Source: Frankiales bacterium
GTDB lineage: Bacteria; Actinomycetota; Actinomycetes; JAFAQI01
Reading direction: 5' to 3'
Length of the DNA: 64,000 nt
Assembly: GCA_025980325.1 (NCBI GenBank)
Contig: JAICXQ010000001.1
Location: forward strand, 12,232-76,231
The notes below the pieces were generated by a model. The model was given only the letters and a program-made list of their open reading frames with translations, had not been told where the DNA came from and ran no database searches. Both the position numbers and the translations under genes were made by a program. Positions 54,315 through 58,493 of this stretch are shown in pieces. How positions within the stretch are numbered: the first letter of the stretch is position 1; every line of letters begins with the position of its first letter.

Positions 54315-56261
54315 CTATTTCAACGATTGCGCCTGAACGCTTGCTGAAGAGAAGGCGATCGGCGCGGCGAGGACGACGTCGGGGATGCCGAACGCGTCGA
54401 CGAGCAACTCGGCGTGCGGGCGCAGTTCGCCGCACAGCGCGTTGACCGTCGCGGTCACCGCCTTCGCCCGCGCCGGCGTCATCCGGCTGTGCTCGAGGAA
54501 CCAGGCCCGGTCTCGCTCCAGGTGGGAGAGCACATGTAGGTCGCAGACGAGGTCGAGCAGGGCCGCGAGATCCGGATCGTCGCAGCGGTCGATCGCCGCG
54601 ACGAACGCCTCAAGCACGAGGCGGTCGACGTGGGCGCGGGCCGCGGTGAGCACGTGGTCCTGCGCGGCGTTGAAGACGGCGAACGCGTCGCCGCCCTCGG
54701 TGATCCCCTTGCGCAGGCGGCGGGCGAGACCGTCGAGGACGTGGCGTTCCCGCCACTCGAACAGCGACAGCTGGTAACCGCGGTCGCGCAGATCGGTGTC
54801 TTCGTCACGACCGGGTACGGCGTCGAGCAGCCGCTGGACGATGTTGCGCGCAGCGGTGCGCTCGATGACCGTCTCCATCACCTGATCGGCGACGAAGCGC
54901 ACCGTGCCGAGCGCGTCGAGGTCGCCGAAGTCCGCCTGGTAGCGGGTGAGCAGCGTCTTCGCGACGAGTTGCAACAGGATCGTGTTGTCGCCTTCGAACG
55001 TCGTGAAGACGTCGGTGTCGGCCTTGAGCTGCGGCAACCGGTTGACCGACAGATAACCGGCACCGCCGCAGGCTTCGCGACACGTCTGAATCGTGTGCGT
55101 CGCGTGCCATGTCGTCGTGGCCTTGATGCCCGCCGCGAGCGTCTCCAGCTTGCGACGGTCGAGCTCGTCGTCCTCGCTGGATTCGCTGTCACCGCCGAAC
55201 ACTTCGTGCGCCTGCGCGATCAGTTCCTCCTGCGCGAAGTGCAATGCGTACGTCGTCGCGAGCGCGGGCAGCAACCGGCGCTGGTGCTGCAGGAAATCGA
55301 GGATGATGACCTCGTCGTCCCTGCCCGGCGCCTTGAACTGGCGGCGGGCGAGCGCGTGCTTGATCGCGATCGTCAGCGCGACCTTCGAGGCGCTCACCGC
55401 GGCGCCGGACACACTGATCCGGCCTTGCACGAGCGTGCCGAGCATCGTAAAGAACCGGCGGCTCTCGTTCTCGATCGGGCTCGTGTACGTGCCGTCCTCG
55501 GCGACGCTGCCGTAGCGGTCGAGCAGCGCGGTGCGCGGCACCCGCACGTGGTTGAACGCGAGCCGGCCGTTGTCGACGCCGTTCAGTCCGGCTTTCGGCC
55601 CGCAGTCCTCGATGCTGACCCCCGGGCACGGCCGCCCGTCCGCGTCGCGGATCGGCACCAGGATCGCGTGCACGCCGTGGCTCGCGCCGTTCGTTCGCAA
55701 CTGCGCGAACACGACGGCCATCTGCCCGTCGCGAGCCGCGTTGCCGATGTAGTCCTTGCGCGCGTCGTCGTCCGGCGTGTGTACGACGAGCTCCTGCGTC
55801 GTCGCGTCGTACGTCGCGGTCGTGCGAAGGGACTGCACGTCCGAGCCGTGACCGGTCTCGGTCATCGCGAAGCAACCGAGCAGGTCGAGCGACATCACGT
55901 CGGGCAAGTAACGCTGGTGGTGTTCGGCCGTGCCGAGGTGCTGGATCGCGCCGCCGAACAGGCCCCACTGCACGCCGCTCTTCACCAGCAGCGACAGGTC
56001 ACCGAGGGCCTGTGTCTCGAACGCGGTGATGCCGGCGCCGGGTTCCTGCTCGCCGCCGACGTCCTTGCCGAACATCAGCCGCGGGCCGCGCGTCGTCGCG
56101 ATCCGCCGCGCCTGTTCCAGGACGCGCGCGCGGTGGTCGTCGATCGAGATGTCGTAGACCGGCGCGAACAGCGGGTCGCGGAGCGTCTCGCGTACTTCGT
56201 CGCGAACCCACGCCCAGCGACCGTCGAGGAAGGTACGGAGCAGTGCCCCCTGATCGGTCAC
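54315..56261 (-). CDS. Acyl-CoA oxidase/dehydrogenase family protein (648 aa)
   Basis: Acyl-CoA dehydrogenase N-terminal, middle and C-terminal domains plus an ACOX-like C-terminal extension; TETGHGSDV motif. Confidence 0.85.
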   Translation of the reverse strand: MTDQGALLRTFLDGRWAWVRDEVRETLRDPLFAPVYDISIDDHRARVLEQARRIATTRGPRLMFGKDVGGEQEPGAGITAFETQALGDLSLLVKSGVQWGLFGGAIQHLGTAEHHQRYLPDVMSLDLLGCFAMTETGHGSDVQSLRTTATYDATTQELVVHTPDDDARKDYIGNAARDGQMAVVFAQLRTNGASHGVHAILVPIRDADGRPCPGVSIEDCGPKAGLNGVDNGRLAFNHVRVPRTALLDRYGSVAEDGTYTSPIENESRRFFTMLGTLVQGRISVSGAAVSASKVALTIAIKHALARRQFKAPGRDDEVIILDFLQHQRRLLPALATTYALHFAQEELIAQAHEVFGGDSESSEDDELDRRKLETLAAGIKATTTWHATHTIQTCREACGGAGYLSVNRLPQLKADTDVFTTFEGDNTILLQLVAKTLLTRYQADFGDLDALGTVRFVADQVMETVIERTAARNIVQRLLDAVPGRDEDTDLRDRGYQLSLFEWRERHVLDGLARRLRKGITEGGDAFAVFNAAQDHVLTAARAHVDRLVLEAFVAAIDRCDDPDLAALLDLVCDLHVLSHLERDRAWFLEHSRMTPARAKAVTATVNALCGELRPHAELLVDAFGIPDVVLAAPIAFSSASVQAQSLK

Positions 56262-56374
56262 GCTTCATGGCTACCCATCCGGCGGGCGGCAAACGCGCGG
56301 CGGCCGCGCCGAGCGAACGCGAAAACGCCGCCCGGTCGACAGTGACCGGACGGCGTTTTCGGTGTCGGAGGAGC

Positions 56375-57043
56375 TCAGGCCCCGGGAGTCTGCCCGTTGG
56401 GCGGGGGCATGAGCACGTCCTGCGAGGTCACCGATGAAGCGGTAGCGGGCGCCGGGACCTCGATCGGCGGTACCGCTGGTGAGCCAGAGCGGCTGCCGCG
56501 GCCACCGGTGGACTTGCGCGCCGTCGTCTTGCGCGCGCCGGTCTTACGAGCGGTCGTCTTGCGAGCGCCGGTCTTGCGGGCCGTCGTCTTCTTGGCGGTG
56601 CTCTTGCGCGCAGTCGTCTTGCGTGCAGTGGTCTTGCGCGCGCCGGTCTTGCGCGCAGTCGTCTTCTTCGCGGTGCTCTTGCGCGCGGTGGTCTTCTTTG
56701 CCGCGGACTTGCGGGTGGCCTTCTTCGCCGCAGTCTTACGACCGGTGGTCTTCTTCGCGGTCGTCTTGCGCGCCGTCGTCTTCTTTGCCGTGCTCTTGCG
56801 TGCAGTCGTCTTCTTCGCGGTCGACTTCTTGGCCGCGGTCTTGCGTGCGGTGGTCTTCTTCGCCGCGGTCTTACGGCCTGTCGTCTTCTTGGCGGTCGAC
56901 TTCTTCGCCGTTGTCTTACGCGCTGTCGTCCGCTTCGCGGTCGACTTCCTTGCCGCAGTCTTACGACCTGTTGTCTTCTTGGCGGTCGACTTCTTCGCCG
57001 CGGTCTTGCGCGCAGTGGTCTTCTTCGCCGCTGCAGGTGCCAC
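56375..57043 (-). CDS. Lys/Arg/Ala-rich pentapeptide-repeat protein, histone H1 / HU-tail-like nucleoid-associated protein candidate (222 aa)
   Basis: About 37 tandem [AG][KR][KR][ST][TAG] pentapeptides (AKKTT ARKTA AKKST ...). GTG start at 57043 with a GGGGG RBS 8 nt upstream. Third-position GC bias supports the minus strand. Non-repetitive 45-aa C-terminal tail. Confidence 0.6.
   Translation of the reverse strand: MAPAAAKKTTARKTAAKKSTAKKTTGRKTAARKSTAKRTTARKTTAKKSTAKKTTGRKTAAKKTTARKTAAKKSTAKKTTARKSTAKKTTARKTTAKKTTGRKTAAKKATRKSAAKKTTARKSTAKKTTARKTGARKTTARKTTARKSTAKKTTARKTGARKTTARKTGARKTTARKSTGGRGSRSGSPAVPPIEVPAPATASSVTSQDVLMPPPNGQTPGA
56480..57030 (-). repeat. Coding tandem repeat array (15-nt unit, about 36 copies) underlying the Lys-rich protein
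   Basis: Repeated GTCTT(G/C)CG(C/T)GC(A/G)GTC-type units are visible on the + strand. Confidence 0.8.
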
Positions 57044-57348
57044 GTTGTGCCCCCTAGCCTCTCTAGGATCGGGACGTTGCTGAGCACAACTGTGACACCA
57101 CCTGCACACGCATTTCCACCATCGCGACGAGTTTGATTGCGCGTGTCGCGCGCGCACACGTTGCGCGTCGCGACGCCGTTCACGTTGTCGATGGCGCGCG
57201 CGTGCGCGAAAAGTCGTTGTCTGGCAAGGGTAATTCAGCATCGACGTGCGCGTGTGATGACAACGCAAGCAATGTAGGTGTCGTCGTTACGACGCGAAAA
57301 AAAATTTTGCCGAAAGTGCTCGAGGGCGTTGCAAAACGCGGTCGAACG

Positions 57349-58275
57349 CTATCCGCCGACCTTCGGCAACGGTCCCGGCGTACTGCTCGACGACGGTGAC
57401 GACGACGGACTCGGTGACGACGAATGCGTCGGAGTCGGCGACGGATTCGCGCTCTTCGTCGGCGACGGCGATGGTTTCGGCGACGACGTCGAGGTCGATG
57501 TCGGTGCGACCGCGGCCGGCTTCGGCGATGCGATCGCCGGAGTGACGACAGTGGTCGTGTGATCGCGCAGCGCGCTGATCAGCGTCCGGGTCGCGGCGAG
57601 AACGGCTTGCGCACCGGGCGGCTGCTTGCTCAAGAGCAACGCGCGTTCGGCCTGCAGCAGTTGCTCGATCGCATTCGCCTGCGATGGATCGCCGTTGCTC
57701 GTCTTGATGAGAGCGACGATCTGCTGGTGCAACTTGTCGGCGGCGGCGATGACCTGTTGCGCACTCGGATCATTGCTGTTGACGACCGACTCGAACTGGC
57801 TCAGTGCGTTGTTGTCCTGCACGATCGCGGACGTGCCGTGGTGCCCCGTCGCGGTCGACGTGCCGGGCACCGGCAGCACGCCGGCTGCCGCCGCGGCCGC
57901 CATCGTGAGCGCGCCCACCAACGGGATCGCCGGCAGCGCGACCGCAATCCGACGGCGGGTCGCCGACCGGGGCCGGGCCGGCATGGGCACGACGTTGGTC
58001 ACCGGCTCGCGGTGCGCGGCCTGCTCGAGCTCGCGCAGCCGGTCGTCCGCGACGCGGAAGAACCGGGCGAGCTCGGCCCGATCGGCGTCGAGGATGTCGG
58101 CGGCGATGTCGGTCGCGCCGGCCTCGACCGCGCCGGCCGCCGTCGAGAGGTCGGTGACGAAGGTCAGCCGAAGATCCCGAACCTCGCCGAGCAGCGCGTC
58201 GAGCGCCTCGTTGCCACTGGCCGAGGCGGCCGGGACGGCGTCTGCGCGCCGTGTCCACCGCCAGTGCCCGGGCAT
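57349..58275 (-). CDS. Membrane-anchored hypothetical protein with a Ser/Pro/Thr-rich C-terminus
   Basis: Single TM segment IAVALPAIPLVGALTMAAAAAAGVL with a PS-rich tail; the start is uncertain. Confidence 0.45.
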   Translation of the reverse strand: MPGHWRWTRRADAVPAASASGNEALDALLGEVRDLRLTFVTDLSTAAGAVEAGATDIAADILDADRAELARFFRVADDRLRELEQAAHREPVTNVVPMPARPRSATRRRIAVALPAIPLVGALTMAAAAAAGVLPVPGTSTATGHHGTSAIVQDNNALSQFESVVNSNDPSAQQVIAAADKLHQQIVALIKTSNGDPSQANAIEQLLQAERALLLSKQPPGAQAVLAATRTLISALRDHTTTVVTPAIASPKPAAVAPTSTSTSSPKPSPSPTKSANPSPTPTHSSSPSPSSSPSSSSTPGPLPKVGG

Positions 58276-58493
58276 CGAGGGCTCCTTTCCGTCTCGAAGG
58301 CTGGGTTCGCCGCCGCGCAGGCTTCTCCTGCCATCCGGTCGGGCGACTTTCGGCCACTCCGACGGCTGTCGCGAGCGCACCTCCGCTGCGGAGGTGGCTC
58401 AGGAGCGCCGCCCGCGGCCGAAATCGCCACTTCCGCCACGATTGTGTGCTGGCGGGAGCAATTCCGCCATACCCCGGCTGCCACCATGTCCCC

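What the first reader, a model, noticed from the sequence alone, without database searches (positions are those of the whole stretch)
56375..57043. Protein made almost entirely of Lys/Arg-Ala pentapeptide repeats (histone H1-like), with a clean 15-nt DNA periodicity
About 37 copies of [AG][KR][KR][ST][TAG] with no globular N-terminal domain. Mycobacterial HupB/Hlp tails attach such repeats to an HU fold. This roughly 222-aa all-repeat protein lacks that fold, so it may be a stand-alone nucleoid-compaction or cell-envelope-binding protein. The six-frame track offers two + strand alternatives (VVLRA repeats), which I judge to be artefacts from codon bias.
Basis: partly seen in the sequence, partly recalled or inferred. 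Interest (0 to 1): 0.55.

Follow-up and report, generated by a model that had tools for sequence, protein, structure and literature searches.

The report
Stand-alone histone H1-like repeat protein
This is a real minus-strand gene for a very basic, unfolded protein built from about 35 Lys/Arg-Thr-Ala five-residue repeats plus a short conserved proline-rich tail, most likely a DNA-coating nucleoid protein of a known bacterial kind (like chlamydial Hc2), found only in a group of uncultured soil actinomycetes and often annotated on the wrong strand.

Summary
Window 56375..57043 (-) encodes a 222-aa protein (pI 12, 72 K+R, 2 acidic) with 35 dibasic units spaced 5 residues apart (residues 6-179). 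No globular domain is detectable.

Its motifs, SGSPAVPPIEVPAP and D[VI]L[MV]PPxNG, are invariant in 50 orthologues (172-290 aa). These come from six MAGs (Frankiaceae/Mycobacteriales) and 44 soil metagenome contigs, always between a membrane-protein gene and an acyl-CoA oxidase gene.

Codon statistics cannot choose the strand, because the + strand ORF shares the wobble position. Comparative evidence can:
- All 2324 AA[N] codons end in a purine.
- Leu, Pro and Gly codons in the tail vary synonymously.
- The SD and GTG start are invariant, with frameshifting indels just upstream.
- A terminator follows the stop.

The protein passes Pfam HC2 (140.7 bits, cut-off 40) but fails the Hc2, Burkholderia-H1 and Rv3852 NCBIfam cut-offs. 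The same unit forms the DNA-condensing domain of Streptomyces DdbA and the tails of actinobacterial HU. Near-identical alleles differ by single in-frame indels of 12-87 nt.

Best reading: a clade-specific, stand-alone H1/Hc2-like nucleoid protein. It is a new member of a known kind, and its function is untested. Public pipelines call the antisense ORF at some of these loci.

The parts
56375..57043 (-). Complete CDS. It has a GTG start, encodes 222 aa and ends in TGA (56375-56377).
   Evidence: The start is fixed by an invariant GTG GCA CCA GCA GCG in 48 of 48 unique orthologous genes. Indels of 1-2 nt and in-frame TAG codons lie between the SD and the GTG in orthologues.
56507..57028 (-). Repeat body, residues 6-179. 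It holds 35 dibasic units of the form [AG][KR]K[ST][TAG]. K+R make up 39% and S+T 33% of the residues upstream of the conserved tail motif (residues 1-185). There are no acidic residues.
   Evidence: TRF finds periods of 15, 30, 45, 75 and 90 nt. Pfam HC2 covers residues 5-137.
56378..56506 (-). Non-repeat C-terminal tail, residues 180-222: GGRGSRSGSPAVPPIEVPAPATASSVTSQDVLMPPPNGQTPGA.
   Evidence: Alignment A1 and 50 orthologues. No Pfam or PDB relative was found.
56447..56485 (-). Motif GSPAVPPIEVPAP (residues 187-199). It is invariant at the nucleotide level, wobble bases and rare codons TCA, CCA and GTA included.
   Evidence: 8 of 13 codons are a single codon in all 48 unique genes. This is unexplained, and there is no better-than-shuffle pairing with the 5' block.
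56393..56419 (-). Motif DVLMPPPNG (residues 209-217). It is conserved as protein while synonymous sites vary freely.
   Evidence: Leu uses CTC, CTG and TTG; Pro uses 4 codons; Gly uses 4 codons; Asn uses only AAC and AAT.
57050..57055 (-). Shine-Dalgarno-like AGGGGG, 6 nt upstream of the GTG.
   Evidence: The G-run (GGGGG) is invariant and the preceding base is A in most genes (T in some) within the motif GCTAGGGGGC, in the 40 loci with at least 220 nt of upstream flank (39 distinct sequences).
57044..57149 (-). Conserved upstream non-coding block of 106 nt: GCGACACGCGCAA ... GTGGAAATGCG ... GGTGTCAC.GTTG ... GTCCC ... CCTAGAGAGGCTAGGGGGCAC. It is presumed to be the promoter plus 5' UTR. TGTCAsnrT is a possible extended -10 element (inference).
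   Evidence: Alignment of 40 loci. RNAalifold finds no consensus structure, Rfam finds no family, and the consensus sigma-70 scan finds nothing.
57217..57227 (-). Conserved TTG-N5-CAA core of a semi-palindrome (TTGCGT-N4-ACGCAA in some orthologues), about 185 nt upstream of the start. It may be an operator.
   Evidence: where the columns are marked invariant. Function was not tested.
56322..56355 (-). Intrinsic terminator: a 12-bp G+C-rich stem, a 6-nt loop and TTTT, starting 20 nt after the stop codon.
   Evidence: -25.7 kcal/mol. A hairpin before a T-run is present in 24 of 39 distinct orthologous downstream regions, with different stem sequences. It was missed by the stricter scan, which requires at least 5 T in 8.
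56397..57083 (+). Antisense ORF (228 aa, VVLRA/VVFFA repeats) that shares the wobble position with the real gene. It is judged non-coding.
   Evidence: Its only Pfam hit is Decapeptide at 18.9 bits, below the cut-off of 45.

Best explanation
A monocistronic minus-strand gene encodes a 23-kDa, intrinsically disordered polycation. It consists of about 35 [AG][KR]K[ST]T units and is the actinobacterial 'H1-like lysine repeat' module existing on its own.

Shown:
- It is a conserved protein-coding gene with its own ribosome-binding site, a conserved upstream region and a terminator.
- It is under purifying selection in the Lys-encoding frame.
- Its repeat number expands and contracts in frame.
- It carries a conserved non-repeat proline-rich tail.

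Inferred:
- The repeat body binds nucleic acid without sequence specificity by neutralising phosphates. A net charge of +70 would cover roughly 35 bp.
- It bridges and condenses DNA as a nucleoid-associated protein. This is what the same pentapeptide does in Streptomyces DdbA, in HupB/HupS tails and in chlamydial Hc2.
- Charge density matters more than exact geometry. Unit spacing varies between 4, 5 and 6 across orthologues, while K+R stays at 39-45% and no acidic residue is tolerated.
- The invariant tail (SGSPAVPPIEVPAP ... LMPPPNG) is a docking or regulatory peptide for an unknown partner.
- The many Ser/Thr residues next to basic residues, and the Lys residues themselves, are candidate sites for modifications that tune binding.
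For: Real gene on the minus strand:
- In 48 unique orthologous genes, 2324 AA[N] codons end in G (2302) or A (22) and never in C or T. Of these, 1257 sit at sites that are four-fold degenerate in the + frame.
- GCN and ACN wobble sites use all four bases.
- In the D[VI]L[MV]PPxNG motif, Leu uses CTC, CTG and TTG, while Pro and Gly use all four codons with the amino acid unchanged.
- The GTG and SD are invariant, with non-triplet indels and in-frame stops just upstream.
- A hairpin with a T-run follows the stop.

Conservation:
- There are 50 complete orthologues of 172-290 aa.
- Synteny is invariant: F420 reductase gene, 343-aa membrane-protein gene, this gene, acyl-CoA oxidase gene.

Kind of protein:
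- Pfam HC2 scores 140.7 bits against a cut-off of 40.
- The same unit forms the tails of HU, hemerythrin-domain, SepH and DksA-like proteins in Actinomycetota.
- The DdbA H1-like domain, built of S/T-A/T-A-K-K pentapeptides, binds and condenses DNA in vitro and affects nucleoid condensation in vivo (PMC3643593).
- The HupB basic tail is indispensable for nucleoid association (PMC5676037).
- Hc2 is a 165-237-aa stand-alone protein of lysine-rich pentamers that binds DNA and varies in size (PMC2848022).

Other supporting results:
- No fold is detectable: AlphaFold2 gives pTM 0.28.
- Copy number varies. Allele pairs with 0-7 mismatches differ by in-frame indels of 60, 84, 15, 12 and 87 nt: a single indel in four of the five pairs, and 87 nt plus a further 3-nt indel in the fifth.
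- Composition is constant while spacing varies.
Against: - No experiment or expression data exist for this protein or any orthologue. All carriers are uncultured.
- The HC2 match is driven by low-complexity composition, so it does not prove common descent or shared function.
- The three specific NCBIfam models are all below cut-off.
- Hc2 itself is reported to bind RNA with higher affinity than Hc1 and to repress translation (PMC2848022). DNA may therefore not be the only or main ligand.
- The role of the tail is pure inference. No relative of it was found in Pfam, PDB, 1.8 billion representative proteins or viral contigs.
- Copy-number differences come from short-read metagenome assemblies, which can collapse repeats.
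Confidence: 0.62

Rival explanations
1. The main ligand is RNA, ribosomes or another polyanion such as polyphosphate. The protein would act as an RNA chaperone, a translation repressor or a condensate scaffold rather than a chromosome compactor.
For: A disordered polycation binds any polyanion. Hc2 is reported to have higher affinity for RNA than Hc1 and to repress translation more efficiently (PMC2848022, Background). The 106-nt upstream block and the 39-nt intragenic block are conserved at the nucleotide level, which would fit autoregulation through the protein's own mRNA.
Against: No conserved RNA structure or Rfam family was found in the leader. There is no specific 5'-3' pairing. The experimentally studied actinobacterial modules with this unit are DNA binders (PMC3643593, PMC5676037).
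Confidence: 0.2
2. The protein is surface- or envelope-associated, binding anionic cell-wall polymers or host and soil polyanions. This would resemble mycobacterial HBHA or the laminin-binding form of Hlp.
For: Lys/Ala-rich repeat proteins of mycobacteria (HBHA, HupB) have been described in both locations. HBHA has recently been characterised as a nucleoid-associated protein (PMC10665949, title and abstract). The adjacent conserved upstream gene encodes a membrane protein with a Ser/Pro-rich tail.
Against: The sequence has no signal peptide, no hydrophobic segment and no sortase or lipobox motif. A 305-nt intergenic region containing its own conserved upstream block separates this gene from the membrane-protein gene.
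Confidence: 0.06
3. The + strand ORF (56397..57083, VVLRA/VVFFA repeats, pentapeptide-repeat-like) is the real gene, as public pipelines have called it at orthologous loci.
For: It is open in most orthologues. Its codon log-likelihood is higher (0.418 against -0.084 per codon) and its GC1/2/3 profile looks typical. JGI called exactly this frame on contig Ga0207660_10386841.
Against: - These properties follow from sharing the wobble position with a Lys/Thr/Ala/Arg-coding frame.
- The + frame cannot explain 0 pyrimidines at 1257 of its own four-fold sites.
- It cannot explain the Leu CTG/TTG exchange, which would be Ser/Arg to Lys/Asn in the + frame.
- It cannot explain the Asn AAC/AAT restriction.
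- It has no conserved start. It begins inside or beyond the terminator hairpin and runs into the conserved leader.
- Its only Pfam hit is below threshold (18.9 against 45).
Confidence: 0.02
4. The region is a non-functional, expanding tandem DNA repeat that happens to be open in several frames.
For: A 15-nt tandem array of biased composition leaves four of the six frames open or nearly open.
Against: - Start, SD, tail motifs, terminator and gene position are conserved in 50 loci whose neighbouring proteins are only 40-90% identical.
- All indels are multiples of 3.
- No acidic residue and no Asn occurs in any repeat body.
Confidence: 0.01

Closest known systems
Chlamydial Hc2 (hctB) and Hc2-like or BpH1 proteins of Bordetella, Burkholderia and Herminiimonas
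   Same: All are stand-alone proteins of about 165-240 aa built of consecutive pentamers. Each pentamer has two basic residues plus Ala/Thr/Val/Pro. All have a non-repeat C-terminal part, and their size varies through in-frame gain and loss of repeat blocks (PMC2848022; here). The Pfam HC2 model matches above its cut-off.
   Different: - The phylum differs (Actinomycetota).
- The curated Hc2 and Burkholderia-type NCBIfam models score below cut-off (89.1 against 135, and 63.3 against 80).
- The units here are Thr/Ser-rich.
- The tail (SGSPAVPPIEVPAP ... PPxNG) has no counterpart.
- There is no evidence of developmental expression.
- The similarity may be convergent low-complexity.
N-terminal H1-like domain of Streptomyces DdbA (SCO2075)
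   Same: The pentapeptide unit is the same, S/T-A/T-A-K-K, and the phylum is the same. For DdbA this domain alone confers DNA binding and condensation (PMC3643593). A DdbA-like protein (P0094) is among the repeat-driven hits.
   Different: DdbA has 5 repeats fused to a DksA-like zinc-finger domain. The window protein has about 35 repeats, no DksA domain and a different C-terminus.
C-terminal tails of actinobacterial HU (HupB/Hlp/MDP1, HupS)
   Same: The tails are a basic H1/H5-like repeat module needed for nucleoid association (PMC5676037). HU proteins from related metagenomic actinomycetes carry tails of the identical AKKTT/ARKTA units (P0001, P0008, P0013).
   Different: There is no HU fold (PF00216 absent). 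M. tuberculosis HupB uses PAKK/KAAK units rather than Thr-rich units.
Rv3852 family ('H-NS-like' of M. tuberculosis)
   Same: It is a small actinobacterial protein with basic Ala/Lys/Pro repeats. There is a weak NCBIfam hit (31.4 bits).
   Different: The score is far below the cut-off of 100. The window protein has no hydrophobic C-terminal segment.
Lysine-repeat extensions of actinobacterial TopA, Ku and principal sigma factor (HrdB/SigA)
   Same: These are the same kind of basic low-complexity module, used as a DNA-affinity add-on (PMC5714199, PMC3553676). The only PDB sequence hits of the window protein are the N-terminal basic regions of HrdB/SigA.
   Different: In those proteins the repeats are appendages of enzymes or factors. 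Here the module is the whole protein apart from a 43-aa tail.

Membership tests
Pfam HC2 (PF07382, histone H1-like nucleoprotein HC2) | Score at or above the gathering cut-off of the family HMM | tested here: met
   140.7 bits against a cut-off of 40, E 8e-41, residues 5-137. The model is low-complexity, so the match shows composition and periodicity, not necessarily descent.
Chlamydial Hc2 (NCBIfam NF038052) | Score at or above the curated cut-off | tested here: not met
   89.1 bits against 135.
Hc2/BpH1-type stand-alone H1-like proteins (functional class) | Consecutive pentamers with two basic residues each, and no separate globular domain | tested here: met
   35 dibasic units, with spacing 5 in 33 of 34 intervals. 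No other Pfam domain. No predicted fold.
Hc2/BpH1-type stand-alone H1-like proteins (functional class) | Size polymorphism through in-frame gain or loss of repeats | tested here: met
   Lengths range from 172 to 290 aa over 50 orthologues. Near-identical alleles differ by in-frame indels of 12-87 nt: a single indel in four of the five pairs, and 87 nt plus a 3-nt indel in the fifth. Caveat: these are short-read assemblies.
Hc2/BpH1-type stand-alone H1-like proteins (functional class) | Binds and condenses DNA (or RNA) | not testable with these tools
   Supported only by analogy to DdbA, HupB and Hc2 (PMC3643593, PMC5676037, PMC2848022).
Burkholderia-type histone H1-like protein (NCBIfam NF038053) | Score at or above the curated cut-off | tested here: not met
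   63.3 bits against 80.
Rv3852 family (NCBIfam NF050153) | Score at or above the curated cut-off | tested here: not met
   31.4 bits against 100.
HU / HupB (Bac_DNA_binding, PF00216) | HU fold N-terminal to the basic tail | tested here: not met
   No PF00216 hit at E up to 1. The protein starts directly with MAPAAAKK.
DdbA (H1-like domain plus DksA-like domain) | C-terminal DksA/TraR C4 zinc-finger domain (PF01258) | tested here: not met
   No such hit. The tail has no Cys.
Eukaryotic linker histone H1/H5 | Winged-helix globular domain (PF00538) | tested here: not met
   No hit. Only the C-terminal-domain-like repeats are shared.
Pentapeptide-repeat proteins (PF00805/PF13599), for the + strand ORF | Score at or above the gathering cut-off, and selection acting in that frame | tested here: not met
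   The window + ORF has only a Decapeptide hit of 18.9 bits, below 45, and no Pentapeptide hit. The substitution pattern contradicts coding in that frame.

The most novel reading that the evidence does not exclude
The gene may be more than a generic polycation. A hypervariable repeat cassette is flanked by segments frozen at the nucleotide level: a 106-nt leader plus the first 5 codons on one side, and a 39-nt intragenic block on the other. The block includes its wobble bases and rare codons.

These frozen flanks could be functional RNA or DNA elements. Two possibilities are sites through which the protein feeds back on its own mRNA or promoter, and recombination anchors that let repeat cassettes be exchanged between lineages. 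The invariant proline-rich tail would then tether the polycation to a specific, still unknown partner.

That would make this a lineage-specific, regulated chromatin-like system in uncultured soil actinomycetes. It would also be one that current annotation largely hides by calling the wrong strand.
Probability: 0.15. Interest if true: 0.6.

Novelty: new member of a known kind. Interest (0 to 1): 0.3.

Why it matters
This adds a clade-specific, stand-alone H1/Hc2-like protein to the actinobacterial set of lysine-repeat DNA binders. Until now these were known mainly as tails on HU, TopA, Ku, DksA-like and sigma proteins. It also defines a recognisable family signature: the MAPAAAK start, the SGSPAVPPIEVPAP ... 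PPxNG tail, and a fixed position upstream of an acyl-CoA oxidase gene.

There is a practical lesson as well. In high-G+C genomes the antisense frame of such genes looks more 'coding' than the true frame. Public pipelines demonstrably call the antisense frame, and some of the resulting proteins even pass Pfam pentapeptide or decapeptide thresholds. H1-like proteins are therefore under-counted, and repeat families may be contaminated. The wobble test used here (Lys AAR codons never AAY) is a simple way to settle the strand.

Tried and rejected
- **Codon and GC3 statistics to pick the strand.** They are not discriminating. The + ORF shares the wobble position, scores higher and stays open in orthologues.
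- **Homologue search with the whole protein.** It returned only repeat-driven hits to tails of unrelated proteins.
- **Exact look-ups.** The window protein and 9 orthologues are absent from the collections.
- **Tail-only searches.** A profile against 5.8 billion proteins gave nothing. This search also failed to return P0014, which carries the tail, so the negative is weak. phmmer against 1.8 billion representatives gave two spurious hits. Pfam, PDB and viral contigs gave nothing.
- **RNA element in the leader.** No Rfam hit. RNAalifold found no consensus structure. There is no better-than-shuffle duplex between the leader and the intragenic invariant block.
- **Consensus sigma-70 promoter scan.** It found none. 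ECF-type GGAA...GTT spacing does not fit (by eye).
- **Structure prediction.** No fold was predicted, so no fold search was run.
- **Phage or defence origin.** No PHROGs or PADLOC hits.
- **Origin of the gene from more distant synteny.** Neighbourhood conservation is lost beyond about 70% acyl-CoA oxidase identity.
- **Functional link to neighbours.** The neighbours are NAD synthase, PanB, F420 reductase, acyl-CoA oxidase and an M10-like peptidase. No coherent pathway emerges.
Full report
**What is in the sequence**

Window 56375..57043 on the minus strand is an ORF with a GTG start. An AGGGGG run lies 6 nt upstream, and TGA closes the ORF.

The product is 222 aa: T 54, K 49, A 46, R 23, S 15, G 12. 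It has pI 12.0, 72 basic and 2 acidic residues.

Residues 6-179 are 35 dibasic units. Spacing is 5 residues in 33 of 34 intervals and 4 in one.

The DNA periodicity is real. Lag-15 autocorrelation is 0.60, against 0.40 +/- 0.02 in codon shuffles. TRF reports period 15 with 29.7 copies. The 15-nt units are only 60-69% alike, and the better-conserved periods are 45, 75 and 90 nt at 75-85%. 'Clean' therefore overstates it.

The last 43 residues are not repeats: GGRGSRSGSPAVPPIEVPAPATASSVTSQDVLMPPPNGQTPGA.

**Relatives**

A whole-protein search returns only repeat-driven matches to the basic tails of HU, hemerythrin-domain, SnoaL-like, SepH and DksA-like proteins. I therefore used synteny.

The downstream acyl-CoA oxidase gene (54315..56261, minus strand; Pfam ACOX) retrieved 80 genomic loci. 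The six closest have 76-88% oxidase identity and are MAGs labelled Frankiaceae or Mycobacteriales. All six carry an orthologous repeat gene directly upstream of the oxidase gene.

A profile of the non-repeat tail (A1) then retrieved 49 soil and rhizosphere metagenome contigs.

In total there are 50 complete genes, 48 of them unique. They encode 172-290 aa, median 236. All begin MAPAAAK[KR]. All end with SGSPAVPPIEVPAP, a short variable linker, then D[VI]L[MV]PPxNG.

Gene order is invariant: ketopantoate hydroxymethyltransferase, F420-dependent reductase (opposite strand), a 343-aa membrane protein without Pfam match, this gene, acyl-CoA oxidase, an M10-like peptidase.

Beyond about 70% oxidase identity the neighbourhood is lost. 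The window therefore comes from an uncultured actinomycete of this clade.

**Which strand codes**

Intrinsic statistics do not decide this. The + ORF 56397..57083 shares its third codon position with the minus-strand frame. It has a typical GC1/2/3 profile, a higher codon log-likelihood (0.418 against -0.084 per codon) and an equal synonymous score. It stays open in most orthologues.

Five lines of evidence support it:
- Across 48 unique genes, all 2324 AA[N] codons of the repeat body end in G (2302) or A (22), never in C or T. Yet 1257 of these sites are four-fold degenerate in the + frame. Neighbouring GCN and ACN wobble sites use all four bases. Only selection to keep Lys rather than Asn explains this.
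- In the D[VI]L[MV]PPxNG motif, Leu is CTC, CTG or TTG. The CTG/TTG exchange would be a Ser/Arg to Lys/Asn change in the + frame. Pro and Gly use all four codons, and Asn uses only AAC and AAT.
- The GTG and the five following codons are invariant. The SD-to-GTG spacer has 1-2-nt indels, and many orthologues have an in-frame TAG there.
- A G+C-rich hairpin followed by a T-run begins 20 nt after the stop. It recurs with different stem sequences in 24 of 39 distinct orthologous downstream regions.
- The + ORF has no valid family match. Its Decapeptide hit scores 18.9 bits, below the cut-off of 45.

**What kind of protein**

Pfam HC2 (histone H1-like nucleoprotein) matches at 140.7 bits against a gathering cut-off of 40. 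The curated NCBIfam models are all below cut-off:

| NCBIfam model | Score (bits) | Cut-off (bits) |
|---|---|---|
| Chlamydial Hc2 | 89.1 | 135 |
| Burkholderia-type H1-like | 63.3 | 80 |
| Rv3852 family | 31.4 | 100 |

There is no HU, DksA or linker-histone domain.

AlphaFold2 on the single sequence gives pTM 0.28, one long helix at residues 4-82 and coil elsewhere. That is, no globular fold.

PDB sequence hits are only the basic N-terminal regions of actinobacterial principal sigma factors. The tail has no relative in Pfam, PDB, 1.8 billion representative proteins or viral contigs. There are no phage or defence family hits.

**How it most likely works**

The repeat unit, [ST][STA][AG][KR]K, is the S/T-A/T-A-K-K pentapeptide of the N-terminal domain of Streptomyces DdbA. 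That domain alone binds linear and supercoiled DNA and condenses plasmids into aggregates, and loss of DdbA alters spore nucleoid condensation (PMC3643593).

The related basic tail of mycobacterial HupB is indispensable for nucleoid association in vivo (PMC5676037). Lysine repeats also raise DNA affinity in actinobacterial TopA and Ku (PMC5714199, PMC3553676).

Chlamydial Hc2 is the closest architectural analogue. It is a stand-alone DNA-binding protein of 165-237 aa, made of pentamers with two basic residues each. It has a distinct C-terminal part and varies in size through gain and loss of repeat blocks. Bordetella BpH1 is similar (PMC2848022).

By analogy I infer a disordered polycation that neutralises phosphates and bridges or condenses DNA.

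Two family-level features fit a mechanism based on charge density rather than geometry. Unit spacing drifts across orthologues (5 in 81%, 4 in 14%, 6 in 5% of intervals). Meanwhile K+R stays at 38.5-45%, S+T at 23-35%, and no acidic residue occurs in any repeat body.

The invariant proline-rich tail is most simply a docking or regulatory peptide, but nothing identifies its partner. Regulation by Ser/Thr phosphorylation or Lys acylation is plausible, given what is known for HupB and HupS (PMC5931751, PMC11229371). It is untested here.

RNA or another polyanion could be the main ligand, since Hc2 is reported to bind RNA with higher affinity than Hc1 (PMC2848022). That is the main rival.

**Copy-number variation**

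Pairs of alleles have 97-100% identical flanks and 0-7 mismatches in the gene. They differ by in-frame indels of 60, 84, 15, 12 or 87 nt, a single indel in four of the five pairs and 87 nt plus a 3-nt indel in the fifth (L120/L122). The caveat is that these are short-read assemblies.

**Regulatory surroundings**

The 106 nt upstream of the GTG (57044..57149) are more conserved than any neighbouring coding sequence. They show no consensus RNA structure, no Rfam match and no consensus sigma-70 promoter.

A TTG-N5-CAA semi-palindrome lies about 185 nt upstream of the start.

Unexpectedly, the 13 codons for GSPAVPPIEVPAP (56447..56485) are invariant at the nucleotide level, including wobble bases and the rare codons TCA, CCA and GTA. 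The equally conserved C-terminal motif varies freely at synonymous sites. Neither reading frame explains this, and no pairing with the leader was found. It remains unexplained.

**Annotation artefact**

None of nine orthologous proteins, nor the window protein, is present in the 15-billion-protein collection. The + strand translation, by contrast, finds 92 'hypothetical' proteins.

P0123 is the exact antisense of the family gene on JGI contig Ga0207660_10386841. There the only called genes are the oxidase fragment and this antisense ORF. P0152 matches the antisense of L124.

Some such antisense products pass Pfam Pentapeptide or Decapeptide thresholds. On L132, a gene that JGI names 'Pentapeptide repeats (8 copies)' lies antisense to a 262-aa ARKST/ARKTT-repeat ORF.

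**Verdict**

Stand-alone H1-like pentamer proteins are known, so this is a new, clade-restricted member of a known kind. Its extras are a novel conserved tail, unexplained nucleotide-level conservation, and a demonstrable wrong-strand annotation problem.

Noticed in passing
L100/L131 (JGI Ga0207660_10386841) 43-738; L124 1951-2355; L132 502-1450: Public gene callers call the antisense ORF of H1-like repeat genes. P0123 is 100% identical to the antisense of the family gene on L100. P0152 is about 98% identical to the antisense of L124. In all, 92 proteins in the collection resemble the window's + ORF. Some pass Pfam Pentapeptide or Decapeptide cut-offs (P0129 43.8 against 20.2; P0124 49.3 against 45). 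On L132 a JGI 'Pentapeptide repeats (8 copies)' gene lies antisense to an ARKST-repeat ORF.
   Followed up: partly
window 56447-56485 (-): The codons for GSPAVPPIEVPAP are invariant at the nucleotide level in 48 unique genes, including wobble positions and the rare codons TCA, CCA and GTA. Synonymous sites of the nearby PPxNG motif vary freely. The stretch contains the palindromes GCGGTACCGC, CGATCG and GGCGCC. No pairing with the leader was found.
   Followed up: partly
window 57044-57149 (-) and 57217-57227 (-): A 106-nt upstream block is almost invariant across 40 loci (GCGACACGCGCAA, GTGGAAATGCG, GGTGTCA, CCTAGAGAGGCTAGGGGGC). A TTG-N5-CAA semi-palindrome lies about 185 nt upstream of the start. 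There is no Rfam hit, no consensus RNA structure and no canonical sigma-70 promoter.
   Followed up: partly
L130 (ENA ERZ27252479 k141_1823021) 67-618: P0014 (183 aa) joins a different N-terminus (MPRGDKSRYTDKQERKADHIEEGYEKRG..., no Pfam hit) to a short repeat body. It has the same tail and the same downstream flank, 87% identical to L097 and L099. It could be a paralogue, a rearrangement or a chimeric assembly.
   Followed up: partly
window 57349-58380 (-): The always-adjacent upstream gene encodes a 343-aa protein with one predicted membrane segment and a Ser/Pro-rich C-terminus. It has no Pfam, NCBIfam or PADLOC match. It is 40-72% identical across the clade.
   Followed up: partly
window 56507-57028 (-): The repeat body uses markedly more A/T-ending codons than neighbouring genes. 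ACT+ACA are 24% of Thr codons, against about 4% in reference genes. GCA+GCT are 26% of Ala codons, against about 9%. CGT is 22% of Arg codons, against about 7%. This could reflect high expression or selection against perfect DNA repeats.
   Followed up: no
PDB chains 8dy7_F, 8k60_F, 7vpz_F: The only solved-structure sequences resembling the repeat body are the N-terminal basic regions (about residues 74-195) of actinobacterial principal sigma factors SigA and HrdB. This is another host for the same lysine-repeat module.
   Followed up: no
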